Part shown: positions 1,522 through 50,836 of the stretch, one piece after another | Position numbering within the stretch: position 1 is the first letter of the stretch | How the letters are laid out: each line of letters opens with the position of its first letter | From: a phage | DNA length: 64,000 bases | Direction: 5' to 3' (one strand) | Assembly: GCA_020773975.1 (NCBI GenBank) | Contig: GCA_020773975.1_3638.1 | Notes under the pieces: generated by a model | Told to the model about the DNA's origin: nothing | The model's database searches: none | What the model saw: only the letters and a program-made list of their open reading frames with translations | Program-made: the position numbers and the translations under genes

Positions 1522-1890
1522 ACCGTTAGCACTCATCAAGGTATTTACCTGATAAAGCAATGTCTGCATAGCATCGTAAACATCTTTTTCCGTCATCTGC
1601 ATAGCTACACCTTCTGGGTCTGGCAGCCATTGCTCCTGACAAAATTTTAGATTTTTATCGTAGCTTGCCTTGGCATATTGTTTTAATCCTTCATCGATAT
1701 GGGTGTATGACTGCCCCCCGTACTGAGATGAAGAAACTGATTGCGATATTTGGCTAATAATTGTACAGGCAACGCCAATTGATTTGGGTTTTTCTATTTT
1801 TGCGTTGCCAATTTTAAAGCCGTTCTCCAACATATCTCTGTAATCTACAAGACTACAGTTGAAGTGCGGACTTATTAAGTAATCTAAATC
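1522..1890 (-). CDS. nrdD: NrdD exon 2 (DLDYLISPHFNCSLVDYRDMLENGF...SANG)
   Basis: ORF 1519..1833 plus its upstream in-frame extension matches NrdD (MLENGFKIGNA, KPKSIGVA, QYGGQS). Confidence 0.7.
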
Positions 1891-2220
1891 CTTGATTTTC
1901 CTACATTTTTATAGGCAATGACTATATCATAATCTCAAAAGAGATTCTCTGCTTTTCAACTGGTAGCGTCTCCAGCTTACTCCCGAAGGATAGTCGATAC
2001 ACATAACGAAGTCTCACTCAGAATTATTATCTTCACGGAGTGATACTTCGTCTTAGCACGGTATTACCTTGCCCCTTAGCCGAGGGGTTTAGGCTCCCTT
2101 ACTCATAATGCAGTCACCTGCTTCTGAACCGTTAGCACAGTTTTTACTGCACACCGCTTTGCAATCAGCGTTAACAGAGTTATTCAATACTGATCACTCA
2201 GTAAGGCCACGATGTTATTC
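1891..2220 (-). mobile_element. Group I intron D (330 nt, ORF-less)
   Basis: Frame breaks after GYGHVH. Minus strand carries R-like aucgacuaucc and S-like gauauaguc. Exon ends in U, intron ends in G. Splice restores HVH|DLDY. Confidence 0.6.
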
Positions 2221-2718
2221 ATGGACATGACCATACCCGTTTGTATGCCATTCAGCTAATTCTTTTGGTAGAATTTGAGTTAGTGAGACGTGCTTGCTAA
2301 GGATACCAGCAAGAAGATCACGATGGCTACTAACCACCCCACTTGGTTTATTAGCGTTTTCTTTAGTAAATTCATCGGCAGTTTGTTCTAAGAATCCCGT
2401 AATATCTGCAAACAGCTTTCCTTTACCTTCCCTAACGTTATCACGCGTTTTACGATATTCAATATAAGCCCGTGCAGCATTCTTGAGGTCAAGATCCATT
2501 AGTGAATCTTCCACAATGCGGTGAATATCACAAACAGCCACTTTCTCTTGTGGTGGTTCTGATTTTTCCAGAGTCCCATAGACTTGCTCGCCAACTGCAC
2601 ACGCCAGAGGATATGATTTCTCACCATAACCAGCAGCAATCAGAGCAGCTTCTGCCGCTCTAATAACTTTCACACCATCATAATCTTCTTCACGCCCATC
2701 ACGTTTAACAACTTTCAT
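2221..2718 (-). CDS. nrdD: NrdD exon 1 (N-terminal ATP-cone region)
   Basis: MKVVKRDGREE... ATP-cone-like N-terminus, then RDLLAGILSKH...GYGHVH matching the NrdD N-terminal domain. Confidence 0.7.
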
Positions 2719-2721
2719 TGT

Positions 2722-2991
2722 TTATTCCCCCAGTTCAGTATTAATAAACGCAATAAATTCATCTGCCGTACCAACATACACAGTATCGACACCGCACTCA
2801 TAGAAAATCCGTGGGACTGTTTTTGGGATAACAGGGGAACATTTTAAGACCAATTCCTCTTTGGTGAAGTCTTCTCCTAATTTCTTATAGATAAAGTTAA
2901 GTCCTTTTTGTTTTGCAAACTCTTTTGCTCTTACACAATGAGGGCAATTATCTTTTCCATAAATTAAAAACGTGCATTCTTTAAAGTTCAT
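2722..2991 (-). CDS. Glutaredoxin/thioredoxin-like redoxin (NrdH/NrdC-like)
   Basis: CPHC active-site motif in a ~90 aa protein between nrdD and nrdB. Start probably the internal Met (MNFKECTF) rather than 3024. Confidence 0.6.
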   Translation of the reverse strand: MNFKECTFLIYGKDNCPHCVRAKEFAKQKGLNFIYKKLGEDFTKEELVLKCSPVIPKTVPRIFYECGVDTVYVGTADEFIAFINTELGE

Positions 2992-2992
2992 C

Positions 2993-4081
2993 TTAAAAAT
3001 CCCAGATTTCTTCTTCTGCATCATTCACTGTGGTGTTAACACGATAATCTGTGTTAGACATTTCTTGGTTAGCCGTCTGCTGTAGCGCAGGATTCATCCA
3101 TACTTGCATAAACGGCAAAGGGTCTTTGGAAGGAGGGTTGAAGTCTCTATCAAATCCAAAATGATCATAGATAGGAGAACAATTATAGTCAACCCACTCT
3201 TTCAACAATGGTTCGTTAAGGCCAATGATTGCTCTACCATCACTGAAGATATAGTGACTCCAACTATACTCTTTTAGTCTAACTTCGTCAAGAATTTCTT
3301 TCAATTCATGTTTGATGGCATTAAAGCTGTTCAACCATACAGGGTCTTCTAACAGAATTTCAATAATTGCCAAGTCGTTCTTTGTGTGGAGAATCTCATC
3401 AAGCATTATTTTTTGCACAAGTTGTGCCACTTGAACAAAGATCCCTTGTTCAGCCAAGGCAAATGTGCACGCAAAACTGGATATGAACTCTATAGCTTCT
3501 AGGCCAAGCAGGGCAAACATAGCTCTCAGAATGCCTCTACGGGCTTCTTCTTTATCTATAGAAGCAGGATCCAGTCTGTATTTAGCACCAAGAACTTCCA
3601 GTTCGCGCATATATTTGACAATGACACCAGATCTGTTTAAAACTTCTTGGTTGTTTTGTACTTCCTCAATAATTTCTCGTGCATTTGGCAAACACTGTCT
3701 GACAATTTCTGAGTATGTCAAAGCATGAAGCACTTCGATTTCTGCCTGTTTCATCATCAAAGCGTATAATTCACTGTTTGTGATGAATGGGGCAAATAAA
3801 CAGATAATTGATTGCGCTGCAACACTATCAGCTTCCCATTGCCACATCAAAGTTTGCACCATAACATCATAGGTTGATTTACTGCATGTGGTAAAATCTG
3901 AAATTGATTGTACTAAATCAACTTCGTCTTCTGACCAGTCTTGCTCTTTTTGTTTTTTATATAAATCGAAAAGTTTTGGGTATTTTTTATTAATGGAGTC
4001 ATACATCCCCATCTGCTGACCAAGAAACAGAGGGTAATCCCCAGTTTTATGTGCTGTGTTTTCTGTATTGAATAATGCCAT
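2993..4081 (-). CDS. nrdB: Ribonucleotide reductase small subunit NrdB
   Basis: 362 aa; ferritin-like R2 motifs (EAIEFISSFACTFALAEQG, C-terminal tail ending EEEIWDF). Confidence 0.75.
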   Translation of the reverse strand: MALFNTENTAHKTGDYPLFLGQQMGMYDSINKKYPKLFDLYKKQKEQDWSEDEVDLVQSISDFTTCSKSTYDVMVQTLMWQWEADSVAAQSIICLFAPFITNSELYALMMKQAEIEVLHALTYSEIVRQCLPNAREIIEEVQNNQEVLNRSGVIVKYMRELEVLGAKYRLDPASIDKEEARRGILRAMFALLGLEAIEFISSFACTFALAEQGIFVQVAQLVQKIMLDEILHTKNDLAIIEILLEDPVWLNSFNAIKHELKEILDEVRLKEYSWSHYIFSDGRAIIGLNEPLLKEWVDYNCSPIYDHFGFDRDFNPPSKDPLPFMQVWMNPALQQTANQEMSNTDYRVNTTVNDAEEEIWDF

Positions 4082-17066: not shown

Positions 17067-17957
17067 TTATTTACCTGTAGGTAATGTTACAAACGGGGCT
17101 TGTGCTCCACTAGTCATATACACAGGTGTTACACCATTCCATTTATTAATGGCTTCAAGCTGCATAATCTCTGGATTTTTACGCAGGGCAGCACCACGTA
17201 GTTCAATAGACTCTGCATCACCTTTGGCAATCAAGATTTTAGCATCTGCTTCGCCTTGTGCCTGTAGGCGTTTAGACTCAGCCTCACCACGAGCAGCCTC
17301 GATACGTTTCTGAGCTTCAGCTTTCACTTGCTGAATTTCGTTTTCACGAAGCAGTGCTTTTTGTGTTGCTTCGATCTTAGCATTGATGGAAGCCGTTACC
17401 TGTGGAGGATACACCAGATCGTCAGTATAAGACAGCTTCACAAGCACAATACCAACAGGATCAAGTTTTTGTTTCAGATGCTTGGTTACACGCTCAAGCA
17501 GTTGTGTTTTTCCATCACCAGCCAGTGTACCGATATCCATTGAACCAGCTTCTTTGATCAAAGCATCAGAGATATTCTGGCGAATGTTTACCTCTGTAAT
17601 TTCTTGCACACCTTTACGGTACGTCTGGAAAATAGTCGTTACTTTAGAACGATCAACATAATACTCAACACCAATTTTCGCAGAAACTGTCATAGAGTCT
17701 TTTGTCTGGAAATTGAATAGTTGGTCATAGTTATGCAACTGGTTAAAAGTCGGGAACTGATAAATCTCTTCGTTCCAAGTCAGCCAGTACTTACCTACCC
17801 CAACCTCTTGTTGCTGGACACCTTTTTCATCACCGTACAGATCAACTTTAACGCCAACGTAACCTGCTGGAACGGTTGCACGCTCACAACCTGTGAGACC
17901 AATTGCAGAGACTGCAAGAATACCTGCAAAAATAACTCGTTTAATAGATTTAAACAT
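17067..17957 (-). CDS. SPFH/band-7 (stomatin/prohibitin/HflKC-like) lipoprotein
   Basis: Lipobox LTGC, band-7 core and coiled-coil AEAQKRIEAARGEAESKR tail. Confidence 0.55.
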   Translation of the reverse strand: MFKSIKRVIFAGILAVSAIGLTGCERATVPAGYVGVKVDLYGDEKGVQQQEVGVGKYWLTWNEEIYQFPTFNQLHNYDQLFNFQTKDSMTVSAKIGVEYYVDRSKVTTIFQTYRKGVQEITEVNIRQNISDALIKEAGSMDIGTLAGDGKTQLLERVTKHLKQKLDPVGIVLVKLSYTDDLVYPPQVTASINAKIEATQKALLRENEIQQVKAEAQKRIEAARGEAESKRLQAQGEADAKILIAKGDAESIELRGAALRKNPEIMQLEAINKWNGVTPVYMTSGAQAPFVTLPTGK

Positions 17958-35373: not shown

Positions 35374-36711
35374 ATGTTGCATGTTTTCAAAAAAGAAGAT
35401 TTTCAAAGAGAGTACGACATTTTGTGCTCTTTTATACCAAAAGGTGTTTATGATTTATTGTCGAAGCTGGATGTTAAGATAGCTGGCGGTGCAATAACCT
35501 CTTTGTTCTCTAATAGTAAAGTCAACGATCTTGATTTGTATTTCCCATCTTGGGAAAGCCTTGAGATATTCATTGCGTACATGATGGATAAAAATCTCTT
35601 AGGTGGAAAGTATGATTTAGCCGCACAGACAAACGGATGGGGAAATCAAAAAAGAACTTTTAGGTATTTTTATAACCTTGATAATGGGCAGGGTTCTCAT
35701 TTAGGTTTCACAGATCCTTTGTCAAGATGTAAAAATCTTCATTTTGAAGATGAAGATCTTCCAAACCTTACCAGAGTTGGTGTAACCGATAAGAGTGTGA
35801 TGCTGTACTTTGGGAAAGACCCTGTATTACAGTGTGTTGCTGTGGATGTGTTCAAAACAACAGAAGATATCTTTAGCAAAGTTGATTTTACAATCAACAT
35901 GGGCGCTTTTAACTTCAAGGATGGTGTGTGGGAATTTGATAGCAATTTCTTAAAACATATTGCTCAAAGGGTTTTAGTTGTAAATCATAAGACTGAATAC
36001 CCGATTATATCACTTTTGAGATCTGAAAAATATAAATCTCGTGGTTATACAATTTCGAAAAAAGAGACAATGAAACTGGCTATGACCATTGCTAGCCTTC
36101 AGATACAAAGTTGGGAATCGGCAAAGTCACATCTTAGCGGGATGTACGGAATGAAACTGTCTGATATCTTTGATGAGACAAAGCCGTTTTCACTTGATTT
36201 TTTGGTTGAGTGTCTAGACAGATTAGAATCTGGTTGCCAGCAGATAGACAAAAATGTTACCCCTGTGCAACCGTTGCCGTTTAATGATGTGTCCCAAGTT
36301 AATATGTTCAGTATTTTCCAAAGATTAAGAAAAGCAACAGGCAGGAAATACTTTACAAAACTATATGGGGTTTGTCCTGCTGAAGTTTTCTATCTTATGA
36401 TGCCAACAAAAGATACACATTATGTTGGGCTTCACAAAGAAGATATAGCAAATAATTTTCCAACTCTCAGACTTTATGTTGATGAAACGGAGGCAAGAGG
36501 AGAGTACAAAATTCTGTGTGAGAACGGAGAGATAGATGGCTATGGGTTTACAATATATCGGCCAGGTGCAGTTCTGTTAAAGGTTTCTGTAAGCGATACG
36601 TCAAAGATCCAATACGATATAGGTTATTTTAATGATTTGTGTATTTCTGAAAACAGAAAAACAACACTGAAAATTGAAAACATTATTGAGTGTGATGGGG
36701 ATATATCATGA
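35374..36711 (+). CDS. Hypothetical protein with possible minimal nucleotidyltransferase-fold motif
   Basis: 445 aa from internal Met (MLHVFKKEDF). IAGGAITS...x12...DLDLYF resembles the [GS]-x(9-13)-Dh[DE] motif of Pol-beta-type NTases; weak. Confidence 0.35.
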   Translation: MLHVFKKEDFQREYDILCSFIPKGVYDLLSKLDVKIAGGAITSLFSNSKVNDLDLYFPSWESLEIFIAYMMDKNLLGGKYDLAAQTNGWGNQKRTFRYFYNLDNGQGSHLGFTDPLSRCKNLHFEDEDLPNLTRVGVTDKSVMLYFGKDPVLQCVAVDVFKTTEDIFSKVDFTINMGAFNFKDGVWEFDSNFLKHIAQRVLVVNHKTEYPIISLLRSEKYKSRGYTISKKETMKLAMTIASLQIQSWESAKSHLSGMYGMKLSDIFDETKPFSLDFLVECLDRLESGCQQIDKNVTPVQPLPFNDVSQVNMFSIFQRLRKATGRKYFTKLYGVCPAEVFYLMMPTKDTHYVGLHKEDIANNFPTLRLYVDETEARGEYKILCENGEIDGYGFTIYRPGAVLLKVSVSDTSKIQYDIGYFNDLCISENRKTTLKIENIIECDGDIS

Positions 36712-37109
36712 TATGGTTTAAAACGCTGTTAACTTTCTTTTCTAAGAACATAAAACAGATAGGTGTTGTTTTGTGTTGTGTGATGCTCGTTTGGGGTGTT
36801 GTGGAGATAAAGCATTGGTATAATGACCAGTTAACATCGTCATACAACGCAGGTGTCAGCGACACTGATCTTAAATGGGAGAGGATTAACCAGCAAGTTC
36901 GGGATCATAATAACGCTTTTAAAAAACAACAGCAGGATAAGATCGATGAGTTGTCAACCATGTTGGTGAAAGAGAGAGAAATTAATAACCAACTGAAAGA
37001 AGACCTTGATAAAAAGGTTAAAAGTTATAGCAAAACACAAGCAGGAAAACAGGTTTGCCTAGATAACCAGTTTGTTGATATTTATAACGATAGTCTGGGG
37101 GTGAAATGA
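36708..37109 (+). CDS. Putative i-spanin (Rz-like)
   Basis: N-terminal TM helix plus coiled-coil periplasmic domain; immediately upstream of a lipoprotein gene. Confidence 0.45.
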   Translation: MIWFKTLLTFFSKNIKQIGVVLCCVMLVWGVVEIKHWYNDQLTSSYNAGVSDTDLKWERINQQVRDHNNAFKKQQQDKIDELSTMLVKEREINNQLKEDLDKKVKSYSKTQAGKQVCLDNQFVDIYNDSLGVK

Positions 37110-37399
37110 AAAAGTGTGTCATCATGGTTCCTTTTCTATTATTGATGTTAATAGGGTGCACTTCACCACCTGAGAGAGTTGTTCCTGTTGCAAAAGAGAT
37201 CATAATAAGCGATATCTTAGCAAGACCACCCGCTGAGGCTATGATACCACCGAAAGAACCTGAAAAATTGCCAGGTGGTCTTAGTAATGCAGATGCTATC
37301 GAGGTGATTAAGAAAAACAACATTAAGGCTGCTGAAGATCGTATGAGATTAAGAACGTTACAGCAGTATGTGAAGACAATATTTTCTTCAGATAAGTAG
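37106..37399 (+). CDS. Putative o-spanin (Rz1-like outer-membrane lipoprotein)
   Basis: Lipobox LIGC after the signal peptide, proline-rich, 97 aa. Confidence 0.5.
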   Translation: MKKCVIMVPFLLLMLIGCTSPPERVVPVAKEIIISDILARPPAEAMIPPKEPEKLPGGLSNADAIEVIKKNNIKAAEDRMRLRTLQQYVKTIFSSDK

Positions 37400-37494: not shown

Positions 37495-38823
37495 TTGAGT
37501 AAAGTATTTGGACCTGCCAGTCCTAAACAAAAAATGATTTTGGAGAGTAAAGCCCAAATTCTAATAATTGGCGGGGCCGCCGGGTGTTTGTCTAAAGACC
37601 ACGAGGTGTTGACACCATCTGGCTGGATTAAGATATCAGAATGGTCAGGGCAGGACATTCTGCAATATGATAAAGCCACTGGGGAGGCTAAATTTATCCC
37701 TCCTTTAGAGTTTGTTAAACTCCCTTGCGACAAACTTACAAGAATAGAAGGTAATGGCATTTGTCAAGAGCTATCTGACGAACATACTGTGATTTATAAA
37801 CCAGACTATAAATCACAGCCAAGAACACTTTCTTTTTCTGAAGTGGCAGAAAGACATAACAACTCTGTTAAAAAAGGTTGGACAGGTAAGTTCATAACTA
37901 CATTTAACTATGATGGGCCTGGGATAGACATGACAGAAGGGGAATTAAGGCTTCAGGTTGCTGTCATGGCTGATGGGAGAGTTGTTAAAGAAGGGAAAGA
38001 TAATTATACACAGATGCGCTTTGCTAAAAAGCGTAAATATGACCGCTTAATCGAACTTTGTAAAAAGTTTGGATTAAGATATGAAGACAGAGGATCAAAA
38101 CCCAGTGAAAGATATACCACTGGGGAACAGTACGAGGTCATTGTATGGCCTAAATATCCTGATAAAAAATTTACAGAGAAATACTATCAGTGTTCAAATG
38201 AACAACTGGAGATAATACTTGATGAGATTTTTCATTGGGATGGTTCTTTTTGTAAGCCATATGGCGGTAAAACACATAACAGCTTTACAGGTAGATATTT
38301 TACTGCTCATAAGACGAACGCTGATTTTATTCAGTTTGTAGGATCTTCTCTTGGTTATAATACCACCATAAGCCATGACACAAGAAGTGGAAAGGACAGT
38401 TATACTGTTAATATTATGGCTAGAGGAAAAGGATTAAGGTCACTGGCTAATAAAGACAGAAAAGCTGAGTTTAAAGCGTTTACACCTACGGATGGGTTTA
38501 AATACTGCTTTGTAACACAAACAGGTTTCTTTGTTACCAGACTGGAAGATTGTGTGGTTGTCACTGGGAATAGTGGAAAATCATATCTCCTACAATTGAT
38601 GCCGCTTGCTTATGTCGATGACCCGCAGACAGCATGTATAATGTTTCGTAGGACAACACCTCAATTGACAGGTGCAGGTGGACTTTTTGATACAGCGAAA
38701 AGTATTTATTTGCAACTCGATAAGGAATGGAAGCCGAAGTTCAGGGAGAAAGCTCTGGAAGCAATTTTCCCATCTGGGGCAAAGGTGTTGTGGAGACACA
38801 TGGAGTATGAGAATAACAAATTA
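37495..38823 (+). CDS. terL: Terminase large subunit, exon 1 (contains an in-frame intein; 3' boundary ~38806-38823)
   Basis: Walker A GAAG|SGKSY restored across the intein; then ...AIFPSGAKVLWRHMEY. TTG start after GGAGG. ORF continues as intron read-through to 38841. Confidence 0.65.
37585..38571 (+). mobile_element. Intein in terminase Walker A motif (329 aa, LAGLIDADG-like domain)
   Basis: Starts Cys (CLSKDHEVLTPSGW), ends ...CVVVTGN followed by Ser. Removal gives a perfect P-loop GAAGSGKS. Confidence 0.7.
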
Positions 38824-39081
38824 GATCATCAGGGTGAATAGCTTGCCCTTCGTGCCTATAACGGTGGAACTCCCTATGGGAAAATACCGTGCCACAGAAT
38901 ATGGAAATATAAACTCTGGGTGTAACGACTATCTCCGATGAGTGTAGGAGAGTAGAATCACAAGCGATTGGTGATCCAAACGGCACGCCAAGGATGGAAG
39001 ATATAGTCTGTTCCACATGGAAACATGTGGCGGGTGTTTTAGCACACCGCCTCAGTGTAGCGAACTGAGGGGACAATAAGT
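38824..39081 (+). mobile_element. Group I intron 1 in terL (~260 nt, ORF-less; boundaries +/-17 nt)
   Basis: R-like guguaacgacuaucu (~38918) and S gaagauauagucu (~38998). The frame resumes in ...QYTFIGFDEG (Walker B-like). Confidence 0.55.
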
Positions 39082-39111
39082 TGCAATATACCTTTATAGG
39101 TTTCGATGAGG
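39082..39111 (+). CDS. terL: Terminase large subunit, micro-exon 2a (Walker B region ...QYTFIGFDEG)
   Basis: In-frame segment between two intron cores encoding a hhhhDE Walker B-like motif; stop follows within 6 codons unless spliced. Confidence 0.45.
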
Positions 39112-39462
39112 GTAGAACAGTGTGCTCTCTATAAACCCCTTTAATTGACGGGTAACTCTTTATACATATCACCACTAAGTAGGTATGGTAACATATTTAT
39201 GGTCAACGGTAATGACGTTGAGTATAGTAACAGTGTGAATGTTTAGACAATCCGCAGCGAAGCATCCCTACGGGATGAACGTTCAACGACTATCGCTTAC
39301 GGGCGTTAGGGCCAAGCGGTGAGGGAAACCTCCGGTTGATTATCAACCGCCGAAACAGGGGGGTGTGTAATAACACACAAGATATAGTCTGATCTGCATG
39401 GTGACATGCAGCAGCACGTAGTGGTGCGGGATAAGAGTAGCGATCTTATCTGAACAAAAACG
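39112..39462 (+). mobile_element. Group I intron 2 in terL (~351 nt, ORF-less)
   Basis: Q aauccgcagc (39246), R guucaacgacuaucg, S aagauauagucu (39381), then the shared block cugcauggugacaugcagcagcacguaguggugcggg. Ends in G before ACA CAA TTC... Confidence 0.6.
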
Positions 39463-39752
39463 ACACAATTCACATGGTCACAGATAGATTATCTGATATC
39501 TCGTCTACGTTCAAACTCTAAATATCCGAGCAGGATGGTTATCTCTTGTAACCCTGATCCAGATCATAAGATCAAGGAGTTGATTTCTTGGTATTTAGAT
39601 GATGAGGGATATCCTATACCTGAACGCGATGGGGTGATTAGATGGTTTATAAGACGTGACGGGGAGTTTATCTGGGGTGAATCAGAGCAAGAATTAATTG
39701 AAAAGTATTGGGATGGCAAGGATGAGAAAAGAAAGCCTAAACCACTTTCATT
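39463..39752 (+). CDS. terL: Terminase large subunit, exon 2b (TQFTWSQIDYLISRL...VISCNPDPDH...)
   Basis: Spacing and residues between Walker B and the SCNP motif mirror T4 gp17 (DE-x28-TTTPNG). ORF 39535..39846 is the tail of this exon plus intron read-through; 3' boundary +/-6 nt. Confidence 0.5.
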
Positions 39753-40755
39753 TTCCTTCATTTCCGCAACCATTAAAAGAATAGTGGCTTCATGCAGTAA
39801 TGCATGTCGAATAACTTCGTTAATTGCTGGGAAACCCTTTGTATAAGGGCAATCAGCAGCTATAATTACTTTTCCGAAACTGTAGTAGGGAGAATGTTTG
39901 AGATGAAAAATTTAGGATTTTTAGGGTATTCCCATTATTGTGCGACGTATGATGGAAGAATTTATAGTTTGTATTCCCACAAATTTTTACATCCTAATGT
40001 CCATAAGAAAACTGGCTATGCAATGTTAACGTTGTGTGAGGATGGTAAAAAGTTTCAAGTTCTTGTCCATAGGGTTATTGCTTTTGCTTTTGTCGAGAAT
40101 GATAGCCCTGATACAAAAACTCAAGTGAACCATTTAGATGGAAACAAACTTAATAACGCAGCGTGGAATCTTGAGTGGACAACTGCAAAGGAAAACACAC
40201 ATCACGCACATGAAATAGGGCTTAAGAAGTCTTATGTAAACAGTTACAGGCCTCTTGATGATAACACTGCCCTTGAGATATGCAGATTACTTGAGCAGGG
40301 TGCTAGAGTAAAGGATATCAGTGAGATGTTTGGTATTGGGCAGACTGTGGTTAGTAGTATCAAAGCTGGGAGAGTCTACCCAGACATTTCTAAAGAGTTT
40401 AATTTCAGGATGGTTCCTTCTTCCAACAGAATTAGTGAATCCAAAGTTATAGGGATATGTGAAGATCTGAGAGACGGTATCCTAAGCATTAATAAGATAT
40501 CTAAAAAATGGGGTGTTAGTTTTAATCTTGTTAGAAGAATAAAAGATAGAAAAACTTACATCTATATCTCAAACAACTATGAATGGTAATGTAGTTCAAC
40601 GACTATCCCGCAAGGGAGTAGATCGCAAGCTAATGGCGTTCGAAAAGCGAAGCACCCATTATGTGTGGGTGGTGATATAGTCTACTCTGCATGGTGACAT
40701 GCAGCAGCACGTAGTGGTGCGGGGGTTGGCGTTGCGTCCAACCTTGAATACAAGG
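39753..40755 (+). mobile_element. Group I intron 3 in terL (~1 kb) carrying an HNH homing endonuclease ORF
   Basis: P aauugcugggaaaccc (39822), Q aaucagcagc (39851), ORF in a peripheral loop, R guucaacgacuaucc (~40596), S gauauagucu (~40674), shared P9 block, ends in G. Confidence 0.6.
39894..40589 (+). CDS. Intron-encoded HNH homing endonuclease
   Basis: HNH motif QVNHLDGNKLNNAAWNLEWTTAKENTHHA plus C-terminal helix-turn-helix-like repeats; lies inside intron 3. Confidence 0.65.
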   Translation: MFEMKNLGFLGYSHYCATYDGRIYSLYSHKFLHPNVHKKTGYAMLTLCEDGKKFQVLVHRVIAFAFVENDSPDTKTQVNHLDGNKLNNAAWNLEWTTAKENTHHAHEIGLKKSYVNSYRPLDDNTALEICRLLEQGARVKDISEMFGIGQTVVSSIKAGRVYPDISKEFNFRMVPSSNRISESKVIGICEDLRDGILSINKISKKWGVSFNLVRRIKDRKTYIYISNNYEW

Positions 40756-41557
40756 ATTCGATAATCCTCCCATGCTGGAGAATAACCCAGATTATCTAGC
40801 ATTCCTTGAAGGTCTTCCAGAGGTAGAAAAAGCCCAGTTGTTGCATGGGAACTGGAACGCAAGACCTGAAGGGGCAAACTATTTCCAGAGATCTTATTTA
40901 AAAGAGGTTCCCTGCTTACCTCTCGGTGTTGTATCTGTTCGCCCGTATGATAAAGCAGGTACAGAAAGAACATCTGGAAACAGATATCCTGACTTTACAG
41001 CATCTGTTAAGGTAAGTAAAGACAATGATGGCTTTTACTACTTGTCTGGTGATTATTGTCCTGAATTTTTTGATGATGGTAGATATTCGACTCAAACGCA
41101 GGGAAGATTCTGTAAAAAAGCTGGGGAACGTGATGTTATCATTAAGAAACAGGCTTATTTTGATGGTGATGATGTCACTATAATTTTCAGTGTTGACCCA
41201 GGACAAGCAGGAATAAGTGAATTTTTAACAAGCTCTCGTGAACTAATAGCGGAAGGGTTTACAGTAGAAAAAGATCCTACACCAAGCAATAAATCAAAAT
41301 TAACACGATTCACACCGTTTGCAAAACTTGCTCAAGCAGGTATGGTGAGAATAGTTCGTGATAGTTTTGATCCTAAAACTTATGAAGCCCTTATGACAGA
41401 GCTTGAAAAGTTCAATGGGGAAAGGAGTACGACGACAAGAAAAGACGATTGGGTCGACGCCATTTCTTCTGGGATAAATTATCTTGAAAAAGAAGAAATA
41501 GTCAAACCTGTTGTTATTCCAAAAATTGTAGCTCCTACCTTGTATAAAAGAATATAA
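40756..41557 (+). CDS. terL: Terminase large subunit, exon 3 (C-terminal nuclease domain)
   Basis: ...FDNPPMLENNPDYLAFL..., IIFSVDPGQAG and RKDDWVDAISSGINY are typical RNase H-fold terminase nuclease motifs. Confidence 0.6.
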
Positions 41558-45286: not shown

Positions 45287-46300
45287 ATGGCAGCAGTACA
45301 GACTAACGACTTTCAAATCGTAAACCTTGGCGCAGCACTGGAACTTGTTCCACGTCAGTATCGCCTGATTACCAACATGGATCTGTTCACCGCTTACCAT
45401 GGTGAAACCACAATTGCTCGTGTTGAGCGTGTTGACGAAATTGTTGCGGATATTCCTGCACGTCGTCGTGGTGGAGAACGTAACTATGTGGGTAGTGAAA
45501 AAGCCCAAATCAAGAACTTCAACATTCCGTTCTTCCCTCTGGATCGTCAGATCACTGCGGCAGATGTTCAGAACTTCCGTAAATACTTCACTACGGACGC
45601 TCCGAGAACTGTTGAAGACGTAGTTGCTCGCGTAGTTAAGCGTATTCGCGTTTCTCATGAACAACTGAAAGAAAAAGCAATGGTTCAGGCAATCATGGGT
45701 AAATCATGGTCTCCACAAGATCCGACCGCACAGTACAACTACTTTACTGAGTGGGGAGTTACCCAGCATACTGCCAATATCAACTTCACAGATGTTGCAG
45801 TTGACCCGTCTGACCTGATTGAGAAAGACGCTCGTGCATACATTATCGACAATGCAGGTGATAACGGCAATAACTACAATATCATTGTTCTGGCTTCTCG
45901 TAAATGGTTCTCTGCTCTGATCGCCCATCCGCTGATCATGAACGCTTACCAGTATTACTCTTCTACCCAAGAGCCGCTGCGTCGTCGTCTGGGTATGGGT
46001 TCTGAGAATGCCAACAACCGTATGTTTGTTCATAAGAACGTAACCTACATTGAAGACATCTCTGGATATATCCCAGATGGTGAGGCGTACATCCTGCCGC
46101 AAGGTATTGATGATATGTTCCAGATCCATTACGCTCCGGCAGACGATGTTCGTGAAGCGAACACTGTAGCTGAAGAACTGTACCTGTGGTACAAATCTTC
46201 TGCATATCTGCGTGAAGAGAAAGTTGAATCTGAGACTTCCTTCTTGACGGTTAACACCCGTCCTGAACTGGTTGTACGTTCTACAGGTACTTTCGCATAA
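45287..46300 (+). CDS. Putative major capsid protein
   Basis: 337 aa, strong RBS, biased codon usage, followed by a strong terminator. Confidence 0.5.
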   Translation: MAAVQTNDFQIVNLGAALELVPRQYRLITNMDLFTAYHGETTIARVERVDEIVADIPARRRGGERNYVGSEKAQIKNFNIPFFPLDRQITAADVQNFRKYFTTDAPRTVEDVVARVVKRIRVSHEQLKEKAMVQAIMGKSWSPQDPTAQYNYFTEWGVTQHTANINFTDVAVDPSDLIEKDARAYIIDNAGDNGNNYNIIVLASRKWFSALIAHPLIMNAYQYYSSTQEPLRRRLGMGSENANNRMFVHKNVTYIEDISGYIPDGEAYILPQGIDDMFQIHYAPADDVREANTVAEELYLWYKSSAYLREEKVESETSFLTVNTRPELVVRSTGTFA

Positions 46301-46324
46301 GATAGCTTAAATGCTACCTCTAAT

Positions 46325-46356
46325 GAGGGGAGGTGATAATTCACCTCCCCTTTTTC
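46325..46356 (+). terminator. Strong rho-independent terminator after the capsid gene
   Basis: 10 bp stem ggggaggtga/tcacctcccc with taat loop, followed by ttttt. Confidence 0.65.
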
Positions 46357-46431
46357 ACATTCTGACTTTAATAATAACCACTTATCCTGTATTGTAAAGT
46401 GGTTTTTACTAAGGAATAAAAAGGAGAATTT

Positions 46432-46938
46432 ATGGCGAATCAAAATTATCGTATTTTCCCTAACAAAGTTGAGCTGTTTAAATTTTTCGGAGCATATGCA
46501 CCACAATTGAATGCAGCAGTATCTGCAAGACTGCCTTTGAACGGTTTGTGTGTGGGGACACAACACAAGGCATTCCGAAATACGGTTGAATTTTTCACTG
46601 CTCTTGCTGAGATGTCTGGTCTGGATGTTGATGCGCAGCATTCTACCATTCGTATGGGTTCTTATATCGTATTCTTTAATAAAGATATTCCTAATCCAAA
46701 CAGTATGGGTAAGATAGTTGATGCTAAGATTGTTACAGCACAAGAGAAGAAAGATGGAGAGCCACTTTCAGTTGAAGAGATTTTGGCTGAAGCAGAGAAG
46801 TTGAATGACGAAACTGATAAGAAAGGTAGTAAGGATAAACTGGCTGAGTTTGCACTCTCTAAAGGTGTTACATTGGCTAAGAATAAATCTTTTGAGAAGA
46901 TGATTGCTGATTTAAAATCTGAATTAGAAGTATCCTAA
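46432..46938 (+). CDS. Hypothetical structural protein
   Basis: ORF with RBS aaggag. Confidence 0.35.
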   Translation: MANQNYRIFPNKVELFKFFGAYAPQLNAAVSARLPLNGLCVGTQHKAFRNTVEFFTALAEMSGLDVDAQHSTIRMGSYIVFFNKDIPNPNSMGKIVDAKIVTAQEKKDGEPLSVEEILAEAEKLNDETDKKGSKDKLAEFALSKGVTLAKNKSFEKMIADLKSELEVS

Positions 46939-46956
46939 TTTTTAAGGAGTTAAGCC

Positions 46957-48234
46957 ATGACAGCAACTACAGGTGTTGGCGGGTTAATTTATGGTCGTGC
47001 ATTAGTTGACCAGAAAACAGGAAAGAAAATAAATTTTGATGAGTTGGGTGGTGGGAATATCCCAGAAGATATAACAGAACTTATTGCATCTAAAGCCCCA
47101 ATAGAAAGCCCTTCATTTACAGGGAAACCTCAAGCACCAACACCATCGGATGATGCGGTAGGGAAGGAAATAACTAATGTAGAGTATGTTAAAAATCTAA
47201 TTGCAAAACTAGTTAACTCAGCACCTGAGACATTGGACACTCTCAATGAGTTGGCAAAAGCATTAGGTGATGACCCCAATTTTGCGACAACGGTCACTAA
47301 TGAACTGGCAGGTAAACAGCCGCTGAACGACGTGCTGACGGCAATCAGTGAACTGAAGCAACGGGCAGATAATCTTCTGTGCTTTAATCAGGACGGGAAT
47401 GCTTCACTGTCCCCGCTGTCAGAAAAAGCCCGGTCACTGCTGGCACTGGACACGACAGAAGCCATGCGCACGGAGCTTGAACTGAAGGCTGCCGCGACAA
47501 TGGATGTTCAGAGCGATATCCGTGACCGCACAGAAGGGCGTCTGGCCCTGCCGGGAGCATATGGTTACGGGCGTCTGTTCGCGTACGATGAGCACCTTTA
47601 CGTGAACGACGAACCCCAGGGCAGGAACTGGATAAAGAGTGCCACGCCGGGACGGTATGCGCTTACTTTTCGCGATGTCTCCTGGCTGCTTCCCGGCGTG
47701 AAAACATTTTCCGGCATTATTGATGTACTCCAGTCACCATTCACCATCAGTGATGATGAGCGTGGTGCCAAAAACATGACACTGGTCTGTTATAACCAGC
47801 GTGGTGATGGTGAAAACAGCATTCATATAGTCAGCTACAGTGTTTCCGGTGATGAGCTGAGCTTCACATCGTCCACTGTTGTCTCAGACGGTCTTTCACT
47901 GGCCCGGTTGATGTCGGTGACGACAGGAGAGGGGCCGTCATCCTGGTACAGGTATCCGGATGTTGGCGCGCCAGTTCTGGCTGTGTATCAGGGAACAGCG
48001 GCCGGAGATAACTCAGTCAAAATAGGCCTGGGAGATACGGTGCCGGGGTCACGACTTGGTCCGGTGAGTATTACCTGTACATTCAGTCAGTCTGGCATAT
48101 CGGAGTCCACACCGTCTGTAAACACAGGAGGTGCAGGTGCATACAGTTTTCCGGGGCGTTATCAGGCGCTGTCCGGGTGGAAGCAGGGAGGGTCAGCCCG
48201 TGGCTGTATCTGCCTGTTCGTGCGCATTGAGTAA
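46957..48234 (+). CDS. Tail fibre protein (chimeric: AT-rich N-terminal part, GC-rich C-terminal part from ~47330)
   Basis: N-terminal SPSFTGKPQAPTP...NELAGKQPLNDVLTAISEL resembles the conserved joint of T4 gp37/lambda Stf-type fibres; abrupt rise in GC after ~47330. Confidence 0.55.
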   Translation: MTATTGVGGLIYGRALVDQKTGKKINFDELGGGNIPEDITELIASKAPIESPSFTGKPQAPTPSDDAVGKEITNVEYVKNLIAKLVNSAPETLDTLNELAKALGDDPNFATTVTNELAGKQPLNDVLTAISELKQRADNLLCFNQDGNASLSPLSEKARSLLALDTTEAMRTELELKAAATMDVQSDIRDRTEGRLALPGAYGYGRLFAYDEHLYVNDEPQGRNWIKSATPGRYALTFRDVSWLLPGVKTFSGIIDVLQSPFTISDDERGAKNMTLVCYNQRGDGENSIHIVSYSVSGDELSFTSSTVVSDGLSLARLMSVTTGEGPSSWYRYPDVGAPVLAVYQGTAAGDNSVKIGLGDTVPGSRLGPVSITCTFSQSGISESTPSVNTGGAGAYSFPGRYQALSGWKQGGSARGCICLFVRIE

Positions 48235-48249
48235 CGGGGTAAATAAGGC

Positions 48250-48825
48250 ATGAAAATCAGAGCGGTAAAAGGCATCAGAAACGCACATTATCTTGAAAAT
48301 GGTGCGGTTGACTGCGAGGTGTTATTTGAAGGCGAAACGGAATTCGTTCCGTATACCGCCATGCGTGACGACAGCGCCCGGACAGGGCGGTATATCTGGC
48401 GGGAGCTGCAAAGCGGCAAATGGGGTGAAGTCGCGCCGTTTACCGTCACGCCTGAACGTATCGCTGCGGCAAAAGCAGCCAAAAAACAGGAAATCGAGGC
48501 ATGGCAAACAGAGCAGGAAGCGCTGGCGTTCACGTTCGAATGGAACGGTCGAACGTGGAATGGAGGTGCGTCCTCAGTATCCCGTCTCACGCCAGCGGTG
48601 ATGACGGCAAAGTCAGAGAGTCGCGAGGAGACAGAGTGGAGTGATGCGGAAAACAGGCGGGTGAAGCTGTCGTTGCAGAAACTGGAAGAGTTGCTTACAG
48701 CGATGGTGCAGGAGCAGGTTATTCGCAACGATGAGATTTATCGCCGGCAGCGGGAGATGAAGGATGAACTGAATAACCTGGAGGATTTAAGCTCAATCAG
48801 AGCGATGACGATTAGCAGCAGTTAG
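48250..48825 (+). CDS. Tail fibre assembly protein (Tfa-like chaperone)
   Basis: C-terminal ...NDEIYRRQREMKDELNNLEDLSSIRAMT typical of lambda/Mu-type Tfa; GC-rich like the fibre 3' end. Confidence 0.55.
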   Translation: MKIRAVKGIRNAHYLENGAVDCEVLFEGETEFVPYTAMRDDSARTGRYIWRELQSGKWGEVAPFTVTPERIAAAKAAKKQEIEAWQTEQEALAFTFEWNGRTWNGGASSVSRLTPAVMTAKSESREETEWSDAENRRVKLSLQKLEELLTAMVQEQVIRNDEIYRRQREMKDELNNLEDLSSIRAMTISSS

Positions 48826-49192
48826 CGGTCAATTAGCCCAGAAAAAAAAACGCGAAGTTACAAAAGAGTGGAGAAAACGGGAAGAAAGCTCTACAACTAT
48901 TGTTTCCTATAATGGTGCAAGGTATGATGTTGATAATGCAACTCTTGATCGTATTTATCCAGTATTATTAGCACAAAAAGCATCCTCGGCTAGGCAAGCT
49001 GTGATTTGGAGAGATGTTGATAACAGACCTGTTGAGATGAGTAGCTCTGAATTTGAAAATCTTGTTGTAGCTATGTCTTCCGAGTTGGCAACCAAGAATG
49101 ATACAATATACACTAGGCAACGAGAGATGAAAGACCAAGTGCTTTCAGCCTCTACAGTTGAGGAATTGCAAAGTATAACAATTGGGTGGTAG
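48809..49192 (+). pseudogene. Remnant of a second, AT-rich tfa paralogue (C-terminal part, no start codon, different frame)
   Basis: Frame translation ...DVDNRPVEMSSSEFENLVVAMSSELATKNDTIYTRQREMKDQVLSASTVEELQSI parallels the Tfa C-terminus; only a GTG at 49001 is available as start. Confidence 0.4.
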
Positions 49193-49494
49193 CTACGGAT
49201 TATAAGGATAAAGTTGTCAATGCTGAAGTTATACTTCCAGATGGGCATAGTATTGGAGGATCAGGACTCCCAAACCAATCTTTTAAATTATACACAGAAG
49301 ACACCGCGACCATAAAACTTTCAGGTAATGGTGAAAAAGCAACACCACTTAAAGGTGTTGTTGTGGTGGCAGAAGATGAAAATAATGCTCTCCAAGCTGG
49401 AGATAATGGGTTAGCTGGAGTAATACCCGAAGCAGGTGCTGATGAAGCCTCACATGAATTTAATTATGTTGTTCAATATAGTTACACAAGTTAA
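49186..49494 (+). CDS. Hypothetical protein
   Basis: ORF only. Confidence 0.3.
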   Translation: MVATDYKDKVVNAEVILPDGHSIGGSGLPNQSFKLYTEDTATIKLSGNGEKATPLKGVVVVAEDENNALQAGDNGLAGVIPEAGADEASHEFNYVVQYSYTS

Positions 49495-49505: not shown

Positions 49506-49763
49506 ATGGCAACAAATGGCGTAGCAGGTAAAGTATATGCATCAAGCCTTATTGATATAAAAACTGGAAAATCTGTGAAAATCGAAGATATTGTTGCTGG
49601 AGGCTCAGATAGCTATGTTCTTCCAGCGGCTACGGAATCAGTATTAGGAGGTGTTAAGAAAGCACAAACACAAGCAGATTCTGTGGCTTCAGATGTCTCT
49701 ACGTTGGTCAACGATTTTAATGCTTTGCTTGCCAAATTGAAAGCCGCTGGTATTATGTCGTGA
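49506..49763 (+). CDS. Small protein similar to the tail-fibre N-terminus
   Basis: MATNGVAGKVYASSLIDIKTGKSVKIEDIVAGG parallels MTATTGVGGLIYGRALVDQKTGKKINFDELGGG of the 46957 fibre. Confidence 0.35.
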   Translation: MATNGVAGKVYASSLIDIKTGKSVKIEDIVAGGSDSYVLPAATESVLGGVKKAQTQADSVASDVSTLVNDFNALLAKLKAAGIMS

Positions 49764-49765
49764 TA

Positions 49766-49792
49766 AAAAGACCCTTCGGGGTCTTTTATTTT
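49766..49792. terminator. Bidirectional rho-independent terminator
   Basis: gaccc-ttcg-gggtc hairpin flanked by A-run and T-run; between convergent genes. Confidence 0.6.
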
Positions 49793-50190
49793 AGGATTCC
49801 TTGCACTCCTTTATCCAAGTTTGCATTAATATACACTTCCCGCCCATCTTTGTAAAAAGTGCAGATGTATTTTCCAGTGTAAGATTGTTTTCCTGAGATA
49901 ATTGCGACATCATCAAAATATTGATATGCTTCCGCCTGTTCTGCTATCCTACCCTCGAAACCTGATGACACAACAATAACGCCTGGTTTAAATGCTTCTC
50001 TAAATCTCTTATCGCAAGATAATTGTACAATACGGCTAATTGCCTCATCTTTTTCTTCTGGCGACAACCAACTTGCCTCGACAGATTTATAATCATTAAT
50101 ATCTGGGTTCTTTTTCACATATTGGAAAGTTCCCGCTGCAATAACAGCACAGACGCACAGACCAATTGTAATTTTTAAAATATTTTTCAT
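49786..50190 (-). CDS. Reverse-oriented lipoprotein (moron-like insertion in the structural module)
   Basis: Signal peptide with lipobox-like LCVCAV; own promoter-like element at ~50200-50260 (rc TTGACA); opposite strand to all neighbours. Confidence 0.45.
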   Translation of the reverse strand: MKNILKITIGLCVCAVIAAGTFQYVKKNPDINDYKSVEASWLSPEEKDEAISRIVQLSCDKRFREAFKPGVIVVSSGFEGRIAEQAEAYQYFDDVAIISGKQSYTGKYICTFYKDGREVYINANLDKGVQGILK

Positions 50191-50317
50191 AAATCCTCCA
50201 TAGCAATTGTTGTGTTTATCTTACCTACGGAATTTTTCGTGTCAAGCGTTTTTAATGACAAAAATTGTATTTTGTGATAATATAGTTACTGACAAGTAAC
50301 ATAAAATGGAGAGTTAG

Positions 50318-50836
50318 ATGACAGACCAAGAAATTGTTGATTACATCAGGCTCCTGCTTGGGTCAATATCCCCAGAGGCACTACCTGATGAAGTTATCAT
50401 GGCATTCCTTGAGATGGAGAAAAAAAGAGCAAACTGGCCTAACCCATCATCCACGCCTTGCGACATGTGGAAAGTGGTCTATAACACAATGGTGGCTGTA
50501 TTAAGATGGTTAATTCTTCAAGAGATAAATTCTGGCGAGGCATCCATCACAGAAAGATTGGAAAAGATAGGTGATGAGACAATACAGGTGAAAGGCGGCT
50601 CATCATACCAGAACTGGAAAGATTTTCTGGACTGGCTACTGCAAAACCCTGATTACGTCAATAGTTGTCTGAATGGTGTCTCTGGTTTGATTATTGTAGG
50701 TGGTGTGCGGCAGGATGAGTTTTGGCGTGTCAAGAACAATCCAAACTCCAGAAGCCCGTTTGATGTTTCTGGTATAGTTCCTCAAACAGGAGTCCCCGGT
50801 ATTCCTCGGAGATACCCAAAACACAGGTATTATTGA
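50318..50836 (+). CDS. Hypothetical structural protein
   Basis: ORF in the late operon. Confidence 0.3.
   Translation: MTDQEIVDYIRLLLGSISPEALPDEVIMAFLEMEKKRANWPNPSSTPCDMWKVVYNTMVAVLRWLILQEINSGEASITERLEKIGDETIQVKGGSSYQNWKDFLDWLLQNPDYVNSCLNGVSGLIIVGGVRQDEFWRVKNNPNSRSPFDVSGIVPQTGVPGIPRRYPKHRYY

What the first reader, a model, noticed from the sequence alone, without database searches (positions are those of the whole stretch)
49786..50190. Reverse-oriented lipoprotein gene inside the rightward structural operon
A 134 aa predicted lipoprotein is encoded on the opposite strand, bounded by a bidirectional terminator and its own promoter-like element, in a block where all other genes are rightward. 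This moron-like arrangement is typical of accessory genes such as superinfection exclusion or receptor-masking lipoproteins.
Basis: partly seen in the sequence, partly recalled or inferred. Interest (0 to 1): 0.45.

Follow-up and report, generated by a model that had tools for sequence, protein, structure and literature searches.

The report
Reverse-strand membrane-anchored accessory gene, not lipoprotein
A small, conserved gene that runs against the flow of a virulent E. coli phage's structural genes, with its own promoter and terminator, encodes an inner-membrane-anchored periplasmic protein of unknown function rather than a lipoprotein; it is a recognised hypothetical-protein family and only moderately interesting.

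Summary
The 134-aa ORF at 49786-50190 (-) is a real gene. It is full-length PHROG 11434 "membrane protein" (E 2e-63) and is under purifying selection (dN/dS 0.09-0.13). It is the only minus-strand gene in about 38 kb of rightward structural genes of an Avunavirus (Vequintavirinae) phage.

It is an autonomous transcription unit:
- The sigma-70-type promoter (TTGACA-16-TAAGAT plus an upstream A-tract) keeps its hexamers across 14 genomes of three or more genera, while the spacer varies freely.
- It shares a bidirectional hairpin terminator with the upstream head-fibre gene. That hairpin carries a compensatory G-C to A-T change between genera.
- The cassette sits between a terminator and the promoter of the Ad1 adaptor gene. 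That junction exists without the gene in rV5, phiTE and an Erwinia Henunavirus.

The "moron-like" architecture is therefore supported. The lipoprotein call is not. There is no lipobox, the N-terminal cysteines occur only in Avunavirus members (and two metagenomic ones), and the phage's true o-spanin passes the same test.

The function is inferred only. I favour a periplasmic binder or inhibitor acting at the inner-membrane or peptidoglycan level, such as superinfection exclusion, rather than outer-membrane receptor masking.

The parts
49786..50190 (-). CDS of 134 aa (stop codon TAA at 49788-49786). Member of PHROG 11434 'membrane protein'; ortholog of PVP-SE1 gp065 and Av-05 gp081.
   Evidence: ORF. 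PHROG E 2e-63 over 1-134 of 134. tblastn hits in 66 phage records. dN/dS 0.09-0.13.
50116..50181 (-). Codons 4-25: N-terminal hydrophobic helix (ILKITIGLCVCAVIAAGTFQYV), read as a signal-anchor or TM segment with no lipobox.
   Evidence: Best 19-residue Kyte-Doolittle window is residues 4-22, mean 2.16. AF2 helix spans residues 2-27. Charge difference favours N-in/C-out in 17 of 18 members. dN/dS is 0.43 here against 0.057 in the ectodomain. All lipobox patterns are negative.
49789..50109 (-). Codons 28-134: predicted periplasmic alpha+beta domain. It has a long helix (44-64) packed on a 5-stranded antiparallel sheet, invariant Cys59 and Cys110, and the motifs SWLSxEEK, CDxxFR and YIC.
49766..49787 (.). 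Bidirectional intrinsic terminator hairpin shared by the convergent head-fibre gene and the membrane-protein gene. The stop codon of the latter (49786-49788) overlaps the 3' end of the stem and the T-run.
   Evidence: Folds on both strands. Conserved in 14 genomes with a compensatory change, GGCCCC/GGGGCC versus GACCCC/GGGGTC. The PVP-SE1 record annotates rho-independent terminators on both strands at the homologous site.
50194..50199 (-). Shine-Dalgarno sequence GGAGGA, 4 nt before the ATG.
   Evidence: Sequence. A GGAG-type motif is present at this position in the aligned upstream regions.
50218..50253 (-). Sigma-70-type promoter of the membrane-protein gene: A-tract 50253-50249, -35 TTGACA 50245-50240, 16-nt spacer, -10 TAAGAT 50223-50218. 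Predicted transcription start is near 50211.
   Evidence: Consensus scan scores 10 of 12. Phylogenetic footprint: the -35 hexamer and the T, A and final T of the -10 are invariant in the 11-genome alignment, with an unconserved spacer, and the same elements are present in three more genomes.
50255..50283 (+). Back-to-back divergent promoter for the Ad1 adaptor, neck and tail genes: -35 ATGACA 50255-50260, 17-nt spacer, TG 50275-50276, -10 TAATAT 50278-50283.
   Evidence: 9 of 12, with TG. Conserved as (A/G)TGACA ... TGATAAGAT in Seuna- and Mydovirus. A similar element, ATGACT-17-TG-A-TAAAAT, is present in phiTE, which lacks the reverse gene.
49506..49763 (+). Upstream convergent neighbour: 85-aa head-fibre-like protein.
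   Evidence: Matches the C-terminal part of Pfam PF11133 (E 3e-17). PHROG head fiber families.
50318..50836 (+). Downstream divergent neighbour: Ad1 head-to-tail adaptor (PHROG 2663; PF26075 Phage_Adaptor_PhiTE in related contigs).
   Evidence: Annotated 'Ad1 adapter protein' in rV5_ev156. Pfam labels on related contigs.

Best explanation
The locus is a self-contained accessory transcription unit lodged at the boundary between the head/fibre operon and the neck/tail operon of a virulent Avunavirus.

Host sigma-70 RNA polymerase starts at a near-consensus promoter (A-tract, TTGACA, 16 nt, TAAGAT). This promoter lies back-to-back with the promoter of the Ad1 adaptor gene. A roughly 450-nt leftward mRNA is made and ends at the hairpin that also terminates the rightward head-fibre transcript.

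The 134-aa product is not a lipoprotein. Its N-terminal hydrophobic helix of about 20 residues most likely acts as an uncleaved signal anchor, with the N-terminus in and the C-terminus out. This would tether a compact periplasmic domain of about 105 residues to the inner membrane. That domain has a cystatin/NTF2-like fold and is probably stabilised by a Cys59-Cys110 disulfide.

Shown by sequence and comparison: the gene, its orientation, the promoter and terminator footprints, purifying selection, the absence of a lipobox, and the clade-restricted presence.

Inferred: the topology, the disulfide, and expression by unmodified host polymerase.

Function is inferred from architecture only. I think the domain is most likely a periplasmic binding or inhibitor module. 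It would act on an envelope-crossing step at the peptidoglycan or inner-membrane level. That means superinfection exclusion with the logic of T4 Sp/Imm or HK97 gp15, blocking a tail lysozyme, tape-measure protein or DNA-entry step of incoming related phages. It would not mask a receptor in the outer membrane.
For: - Real gene: PHROG 11434 E 2e-63. Found in 66 phage records. dN/dS is 0.128 overall and 0.057 in the ectodomain.
- Autonomous unit: promoter and terminator (annotated in PVP-SE1).
- Position and orientation are identical in Avuna-, Seuna- and Mydovirus genomes and in three metagenomic contigs.
- Accessory status: absent at the same junction in rV5_ev156, phiTE and pEp_SNUABM_01, each of which shows a terminator-like hairpin upstream of Ad1. 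The Ad1 family occurs in 269 phage records, this gene in 66.
- Faster evolving than its neighbour: 38% against 75% identity to KB57.
- Not a lipoprotein: with the o-spanin at 37106-37399 as a positive control.
- Membrane anchor and fold: AF2 pLDDT 88, helix 2-27. PVP-SE1 annotators report 1 TM by TMHMM and Octopus. Charge rule gives N-in in 17 of 18 members. Two cysteines are invariant.
- Spanin function is already covered by 36708-37109 and 37106-37399.
Against: - There is no experimental or homology evidence for any function. Pfam, NCBIfam, PADLOC, the PDB sequence profile and Foldseek against PDB are all negative.
- The phages are strictly virulent, so the benefit of exclusion is limited to the latent period.
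- Sigma-70-like promoters are reported all over rV5-type genomes, including late regions (PMC3606486). Early expression therefore cannot be deduced from promoter type.
- Signal-peptidase I cleavage (for example after AAG at residue 20) cannot be excluded without SignalP. The domain could therefore be free in the periplasm.
- One metagenomic member (P0014) does carry a formal lipobox.
Confidence: 0.35

Rival explanations
1. Lysis-timing regulator. The membrane-tethered periplasmic domain would bind the periplasmic part of the phage holin, or another lysis protein, and so delay or tune lysis. This is the logic of the T4 RI antiholin.
For: - The architecture matches RI: a short N-terminus, a single hydrophobic anchor and a small periplasmic domain.
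- It has an independent promoter.
- It is dispensable in related genera, as expected for a modulator rather than a core lysis component.
Against: - It is not next to any lysis gene. The spanin pair lies 13 kb away at 36708-37399.
- I recall T4 RI as alpha-helical, whereas this domain is alpha+beta.
- It has no sequence similarity to any solved structure.
Confidence: 0.15
2. Modulator or inhibitor of a host envelope enzyme or defence. Candidate targets are a periplasmic protease, a peptidoglycan hydrolase or synthase, or an envelope stress sensor. The protein would condition the cell envelope for phage production rather than exclude other phages.
For: - The cystatin-type fold is a recurrent inhibitor scaffold, and NTF2-like domains are common in bitopic envelope proteins.
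- The periplasmic domain is strongly constrained (dN/dS 0.057).
- The protein diverges with host genus across Escherichia, Salmonella/Cronobacter and Klebsiella/Proteus.
Against: - No cystatin signature motif was seen by eye, and there is no Pfam hit.
- No target can be named.
Confidence: 0.25
3. Outer-membrane receptor-masking lipoprotein of the T5 Llp or Cor type.
For: - The opposite orientation within late structural genes, next to fibre genes and with a sigma-70-type promoter, resembles the arrangement of T5 llp next to its receptor-binding gene. That comparison is from my own knowledge and was not tested here.
- One metagenomic homolog (P0014) has a lipobox, VSSC.
Against: - The window protein has no lipobox, and neither do 19 of 20 family representatives.
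- N-terminal cysteines are absent from most members.
- The hydrophobic segment continues about 10 residues past the cysteines.
- The same test detects the phage's o-spanin and an SPFH lipoprotein.
- CPT annotators list LipoP in their pipeline and left the Mydo homolog as a 'hypothetical protein'.
Confidence: 0.04
4. Morphogenetic helper. A membrane-anchored factor would be needed for assembly of the neighbouring head-fibre or fibre proteins, or of the neck.
For: It is invariably adjacent to the head-fibre-like gene and the Ad1 adaptor gene.
Against: - The predicted periplasmic location of the domain separates it from cytoplasmic assembly.
- It has the opposite strand and its own promoter.
- The Henunavirus has a head-fibre gene but not this gene. 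rV5 and phiTE build the same neck without it.
Confidence: 0.08

Closest known systems
PHROG 11434 / PVP-SE1 gp065 (YP_004893872), Av-05 gp081, GAP31_206, KB57_068: 'membrane protein' of Vequintavirinae
   Same: Full-length homology (E 2e-63 to the PHROG; 84-96% identity within Avunavirus, 50-55% to Seunavirus, 37-40% to Mydovirus). Same size, same position between the head-fibre and Ad1 genes, same opposite orientation, and the same promoter and terminator.
   Different: Avunavirus members have two cysteines inside the TM helix that the others lack. No member has a tested function. Several records mislabel it as 'adenosine deaminase' or 'putative portal protein'.
Morons of lambdoid phages (for example HK97 gp15), as defined by Hendrix and colleagues
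   Same: A single gene with its own promoter and terminator, inserted between genes that are adjacent in related phages. It encodes a membrane protein.
   Different: The host phage is virulent, so there is no expression from a prophage. Base composition is not atypical: GC 0.365 against 0.407 +/- 0.041 for same-length windows in the rightward block. The cassette is conserved across three genera rather than sporadic.
T4 Sp (spackle) and Imm; T4 RI antiholin
   Same: Small proteins of virulent myoviruses with one N-terminal hydrophobic segment and a periplasmic domain, acting on injection or lysis. This is my own knowledge. Only the architecture is matched here.
T5 Llp / Cor receptor-blocking lipoproteins
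   Same: Opposite-strand gene inside the late structural region, near fibre or receptor-binding genes (my own knowledge of the T5 arrangement).
   Different: No lipobox. Predicted inner-membrane anchor rather than outer-membrane lipoprotein. No sequence similarity.
Cystatin-like and NTF2-like folds, including bitopic VirB8/TraE/DotI periplasmic domains
   Different: Identity is 3-15%, there is no Pfam hit, and Foldseek E is 0.09 or worse. The domain is shorter than the VirB8-type chains listed (105 against 135-144 residues). No cystatin QxVxG-type motif was seen by eye.

Membership tests
Bacterial lipoproteins (Lgt/LspA substrates) | Lipobox [LVI][ASTVI][GAS]C (PROSITE PS51257 type) at the end of the signal-peptide h-region | tested here: not met
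   There is no match to PS51257-like, G+LPP-like or classic patterns. The candidate sites IGLC and LCVC have L or V at position -1. The same test is positive for the o-spanin at 37106-37399 (LIGC) and for the ORF at 17067-17957 (LTGC).
Bacterial lipoproteins (Lgt/LspA substrates) | The acylated Cys is conserved among homologs | tested here: not met
   Cys12 and Cys14 occur only in the Avunavirus members. Fourteen of 20 representatives have no Cys in the first 30 residues. Only P0014 has a formal lipobox.
Bacterial lipoproteins (Lgt/LspA substrates) | Lipid modification and LspA cleavage shown experimentally | not testable with these tools
   Needs palmitate labelling or globomycin treatment.
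PHROG 11434 (Vequintavirinae 'membrane protein') | Full-length profile match | tested here: met
   E 2.1e-63, residues 1-134 against profile positions 1-134 of 134.
PHROG 11434 (Vequintavirinae 'membrane protein') | Conserved genomic position and orientation between the head-fibre and Ad1 adaptor genes | tested here: met
Moron (autonomous accessory cassette) | Own promoter and own terminator flanking a single gene | tested here: met
   Promoter footprint. Terminator fold and compensatory change. Sequence evidence only; transcription was not measured.
Moron (autonomous accessory cassette) | Inserted between genes that are adjacent in related phages | tested here: met
   rV5_ev156, phiTE and pEp_SNUABM_01 have a terminator-like hairpin directly followed by the Ad1 gene, with no reverse gene.
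Moron (autonomous accessory cassette) | Atypical base composition or sporadic distribution indicating recent acquisition, and expression from a prophage | tested here: not met
   GC is 0.365, within about 1 sd of same-length windows in the rightward block. The cassette is present throughout three genera, with divergence ordered as for the adjacent Ad1 gene. The relatives are Vequintavirinae, which the papers read describe as lytic.
T4 Sp / Imm / RI-type periplasmic superinfection-exclusion or antiholin proteins | Sequence or fold similarity to a characterised member | tested here: not met
T4 Sp / Imm / RI-type periplasmic superinfection-exclusion or antiholin proteins | Exclusion or lysis-inhibition phenotype | not testable with these tools
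   Needs expression and challenge assays, and a knockout phage.
Cystatin superfamily | Cystatin fold | tested here: met
Cystatin superfamily | Sequence signature or Pfam cystatin match | tested here: not met
   No Pfam hit for any of the 18 members. Identity to cystatin structures is 5-9%.
Spanins (Rz/Rz1 type) | Homology to i- or o-spanin families, and adjacency of an i/o pair | tested here: not met
   The protein matches only PHROG 11434. The window's spanin pair is at 36708-37109 and 37106-37399 (PHROG 4297 and 1267).

The most novel reading that the evidence does not exclude
The protein would be the founding member of a new class of periplasm-tethered, cystatin/NTF2-fold inhibitors. Virulent Vequintavirinae (Avuna-, Seuna- and Mydovirus, which include phage-therapy candidates against E. 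coli, Salmonella, Cronobacter and Klebsiella) would use it to block envelope penetration by superinfecting phages, or to neutralise a host periplasmic enzyme or defence. It would be expressed from a dedicated host-type promoter embedded in the late region.
Probability: 0.3. Interest if true: 0.55.

Novelty: new member of a known kind. Interest (0 to 1): 0.3.

Why it matters
Phages of these genera are repeatedly proposed for biocontrol and therapy. A conserved gene that places a constrained domain in the host periplasm could affect cocktail compatibility through mutual exclusion, or it could affect lysis timing or host physiology.

The practical value of this check is mainly corrective:
- The product is not a lipoprotein.
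- Several public labels ('adenosine deaminase', 'portal protein') are wrong.
- The cassette's promoter and terminator are well defined, so knockout and expression tests are easy to design.

On present evidence it is an ordinary accessory membrane protein of unknown function.

Tried and rejected
Homology searches that found no family of known function:
- Pfam on the window protein and on all 18 family members.
- NCBIfam and PADLOC defence models.
- Profile search of PDB sequences: best E 1.5, an EF-hand chance hit.
- Foldseek against PDB: nothing below E 0.09.
- Foldseek against BFVD: only the family's own member.
- Profile search of 1.84 billion representative proteins: only four genuine clusters, all 132-136 aa. 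The remaining hits are long proteins matched in 4-34 short stretches, which I regard as spurious.

Other checks:
- Rfam on 48.5-51.5 kb gave nothing meaningful.
- The PVP-SE1 genome and proteome paper could not be read.
- Literature searches found no experiment on this protein.

Ideas considered and rejected:
- Spanin identity. The real pair lies elsewhere.
- 'Adenosine deaminase' and 'portal protein' labels. They have no support.
- Recent horizontal acquisition. GC is typical.
- Promoter class as an indicator of early expression. The rV5 literature reports sigma-70-like promoters throughout the genome.
- An extra A-tract/TTGACA promoter motif shared across the window. The count was not enriched: 7 matches against 4.2 expected.

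Full report
**What the window is.** The region around the finding is 95% identical at the nucleotide level to Escherichia phages 18-1-2, 19-1-2, 24-2-1 and vB_EcoM_TH18, and 86% identical to phage Av-05 (genus Avunavirus, subfamily Vequintavirinae). The window has a leftward block (1-25 kb) and a rightward block (25.5-64 kb). The rightward block carries terminase, portal, capsid, fibre, neck, sheath, tube and tape-measure genes.

**Check of the observation.**
- *ORF and orientation.* An ATG-started ORF of 134 codons lies at 49786..50190 on the minus strand. It is the only credible minus-strand gene in the rightward block. In TH18, 47 of 48 annotated genes across 41 kb are rightward, and the exception is this gene's homolog.
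- *Coding evidence.* It is a genuine coding gene. It matches PHROG 11434 ("membrane protein") end to end (E 2e-63) and has tblastn homologs in 66 phage records. Against 18-1-2 and Av-05 its dN/dS is 0.09 and 0.13. That splits into 0.43 for the N-terminal hydrophobic segment and 0.057 for the rest.
- *Terminator.* The hairpin AAAAGACCC-TTCG-GGGTCTTTT (49766-49787) lies between the stop codon of the rightward 85-aa head-fibre-like gene and that of the leftward gene, and overlaps the latter. It folds on both strands (-16.1 and -11.9 kcal/mol; z -3.1 and -2.7). In 14 genomes the stem is kept, with a compensatory G-C to A-T exchange between Seuna/Mydovirus (GGCCCC/GGGGCC) and Avunavirus (GACCCC/GGGGTC). 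The PVP-SE1 record annotates rho-independent terminators on both strands at this spot.
- *Promoter.* TTGACA-16 nt-TAAGAT lies at 50245-50218 on the minus strand. A single consensus hit means little here, since 15 sites were found against 7.1 +/- 2.9 expected. The comparative footprint is much stronger. TTGACA, an upstream A-tract, and the T, A and final T of the -10 hexamer are invariant in the 11-genome alignment, while the 16-17-nt spacer is unconserved. Three more genomes show the same elements. Most non-Avunavirus members add a TGn extended -10. A GGAG-type ribosome-binding site precedes the ATG.
- *Divergent partner promoter.* The promoter lies back-to-back with a conserved rightward promoter for the Ad1 adaptor gene: ATGACA-17-TG-a-TAATAT, 50255-50283.

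**The lipoprotein claim fails.** The N-terminus MKNILKITIGLCVCAVIAAGTFQYVKK has no lipobox under PROSITE PS51257-type, G+LPP-type or classic patterns. The residue before each cysteine is L or V, and about ten more apolar or uncharged residues follow. The two cysteines occur only in Avunavirus members; fourteen of 20 family representatives have no cysteine in the first 30 residues. Only one metagenomic protein, P0014, has a formal lipobox (VSSC). As a positive control, the same script picks out the phage's o-spanin (37106-37399, LIGC) and an SPFH-domain lipoprotein (17067-17957, LTGC). The hydrophobic stretch is about 20 residues long, which is TM length. AlphaFold models residues 2-27 as one helix. 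The PVP-SE1 annotators report one TM helix by TMHMM and Octopus. The flanking-charge difference favours N-in/C-out in 17 of 18 members. Cleavage by signal peptidase I cannot be excluded with the tools available.

These are fold-level similarities at 3-15% identity. Foldseek finds nothing significant in the PDB. No sequence method finds any relative of known function. An exhaustive profile search of 1.84 billion representative proteins returns only four true clusters, all 132-136 residues long. The three most informative divergent members lie in the same genomic position. The two invariant cysteines fit a periplasmic disulfide, but I could not inspect the model coordinates.

**Evolutionary context.** In Avunavirus, Seunavirus (PVP-SE1, GAP31, 4MG, KE23, FENT2), Mydovirus (KB57, Ro1, Mydo, KP12) and three metagenomic contigs, the gene always sits between the head-fibre-like gene and the Ad1 adaptor gene. 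It always lies on the strand opposite to them. In Vequintavirus rV5_ev156, Certrevirus phiTE and Henunavirus pEp_SNUABM_01, the same junction holds a terminator-like hairpin directly upstream of the Ad1 gene, with no reverse gene. phiTE retains an Ad1 promoter of the same design. The Ad1 family occurs in 269 phage records and this gene in 66. The cassette therefore occupies a pre-existing operon boundary, which is exactly the moron-type layout. It is nonetheless old and stably inherited. Its divergence follows that of its flanks in order, but it evolves faster (38% against 75% identity to KB57; 50% against 82% to GAP31). Its GC content (0.365) is unremarkable for this genome.

**How it most likely works.**
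- *Shown by sequence and comparison.* It is an autonomous, conserved transcription unit encoding a constrained, membrane-targeted protein that some genera of the subfamily lack.
- *Inferred.* It is transcribed by host sigma-70 polymerase, has N-in/C-out topology, and displays a disulfide-stabilised domain in the periplasm. Timing cannot be read from the promoter, because sigma-70-like promoters are reported throughout rV5-type genomes (PMC3606486). Its A-tract plus TTGAC design does resemble the putative early promoters of Certrevirus (PMC7344957).
- *Function is an inference from architecture only.* A small inhibitor-type fold tethered to the outer face of the inner membrane, encoded by a dispensable and relatively fast-evolving cassette, fits best a periplasmic binder that interferes with an envelope-crossing step. 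I commit to superinfection exclusion at the peptidoglycan or inner-membrane level as the single most likely role, with confidence of about 0.35.

**Rival explanations.**
- A modulator of a host envelope enzyme or defence (0.25).
- A lysis-timing regulator of the antiholin kind (0.15).
- A morphogenetic helper (0.08).
This is disfavoured because the anchor is not a lipobox and an inner-membrane tether with a short linker is unlikely to reach outer-membrane receptors.
- Spanin identity is excluded, because the i/o-spanin pair is at 36708-37399.

**Comparison with what is known, and novelty.** The gene is an ortholog of an already annotated hypothetical "membrane protein" (PVP-SE1 gp065, Av-05 gp081; PHROG 11434). 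Its terminators are already annotated in PVP-SE1. It works like a moron in layout, but it fails the composition and prophage-expression criteria. It shares only general architecture with T4 Sp, Imm and RI, and only fold class with cystatins and VirB8-type domains. I rate it a new member of a known kind, of modest interest (0.3). The main result is corrective: it is not a lipoprotein, and the public labels "adenosine deaminase" and "portal protein" are unsupported.

Noticed in passing
window 46957-48825 (+): Two tail-fibre genes (425 aa, PHROG 2636; 191 aa, PHROG 1141/DUF4376) have GC 0.51-0.53 against 0.40 for the window. They are only 48% and 36% identical to their counterparts in Av-05 and 18-1-2. 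This looks like a swapped-in foreign fibre cassette, and so a likely host-range change.
   Followed up: partly
window 48833-49494 (+): Remnants of the original fibre genes. 48833-49189 encodes only residues 72-189 (84% identity) of the second fibre gene of 18-1-2. The 102-aa ORF at 49186-49494 keeps the first ~75 residues (98.6% identical to Av-05 gp078) and the last ~29 residues of a 545-593-aa fibre protein, so it carries a large internal deletion. Nucleotide identity to relatives resumes only at 49495.
   Followed up: partly
window 17067-17957 (-): A 296-aa ORF with a canonical lipobox (LTGC) and an SPFH/Band 7 domain (PF01145, E 5.5e-20; PHROG 200 'lipoprotein'). This is a genuine predicted lipoprotein in the leftward block.
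   Followed up: partly
window 36708-37109 and 37106-37399 (+): An overlapping i-spanin/o-spanin pair (PHROG 4297 and 1267). The o-spanin has the lipobox LIGC. The pair lies just upstream of the 448-aa ORF at 37495 that corresponds to TH18's first terminase segment, and is homologous to KP12 peg.135 and peg.134 (PMC9902359).
   Followed up: yes
window about 37495-41557 (+); L019 7271-10984: In TH18 the large terminase is annotated in three pieces, with an HNH homing endonuclease gene between the second and third. The window has a matching series of ORFs (37495-38841, 39804-40589, 40772-41557), which suggests an intron- or intein-type interruption.
   Followed up: no
Public records OK136180, OK181858, OK181861, ON075799, KR296684, MW006477: Homologs of the finding's gene are labelled 'adenosine deaminase' or 'putative portal protein'. 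No Pfam or NCBIfam match supports either label.
   Followed up: yes
L014 5001-5396 (metagenomic contig SRR22560093_10): One family member (P0014) has acquired a formal lipobox (AVSSC, Cys16) in place of the plain TM helix. This may be a switch from a helical anchor to a lipid anchor within the family.
   Followed up: partly
L001 (Av-05, NC_025830) 1-3462 versus window 45287-48234: In the Av-05 record the fibre genes directly follow leftward DprA-like and protease genes. In the window and in TH18 they follow the major capsid gene. This is either a genome rearrangement or an assembly difference in the 120.9-kb Av-05 record.
   Followed up: no
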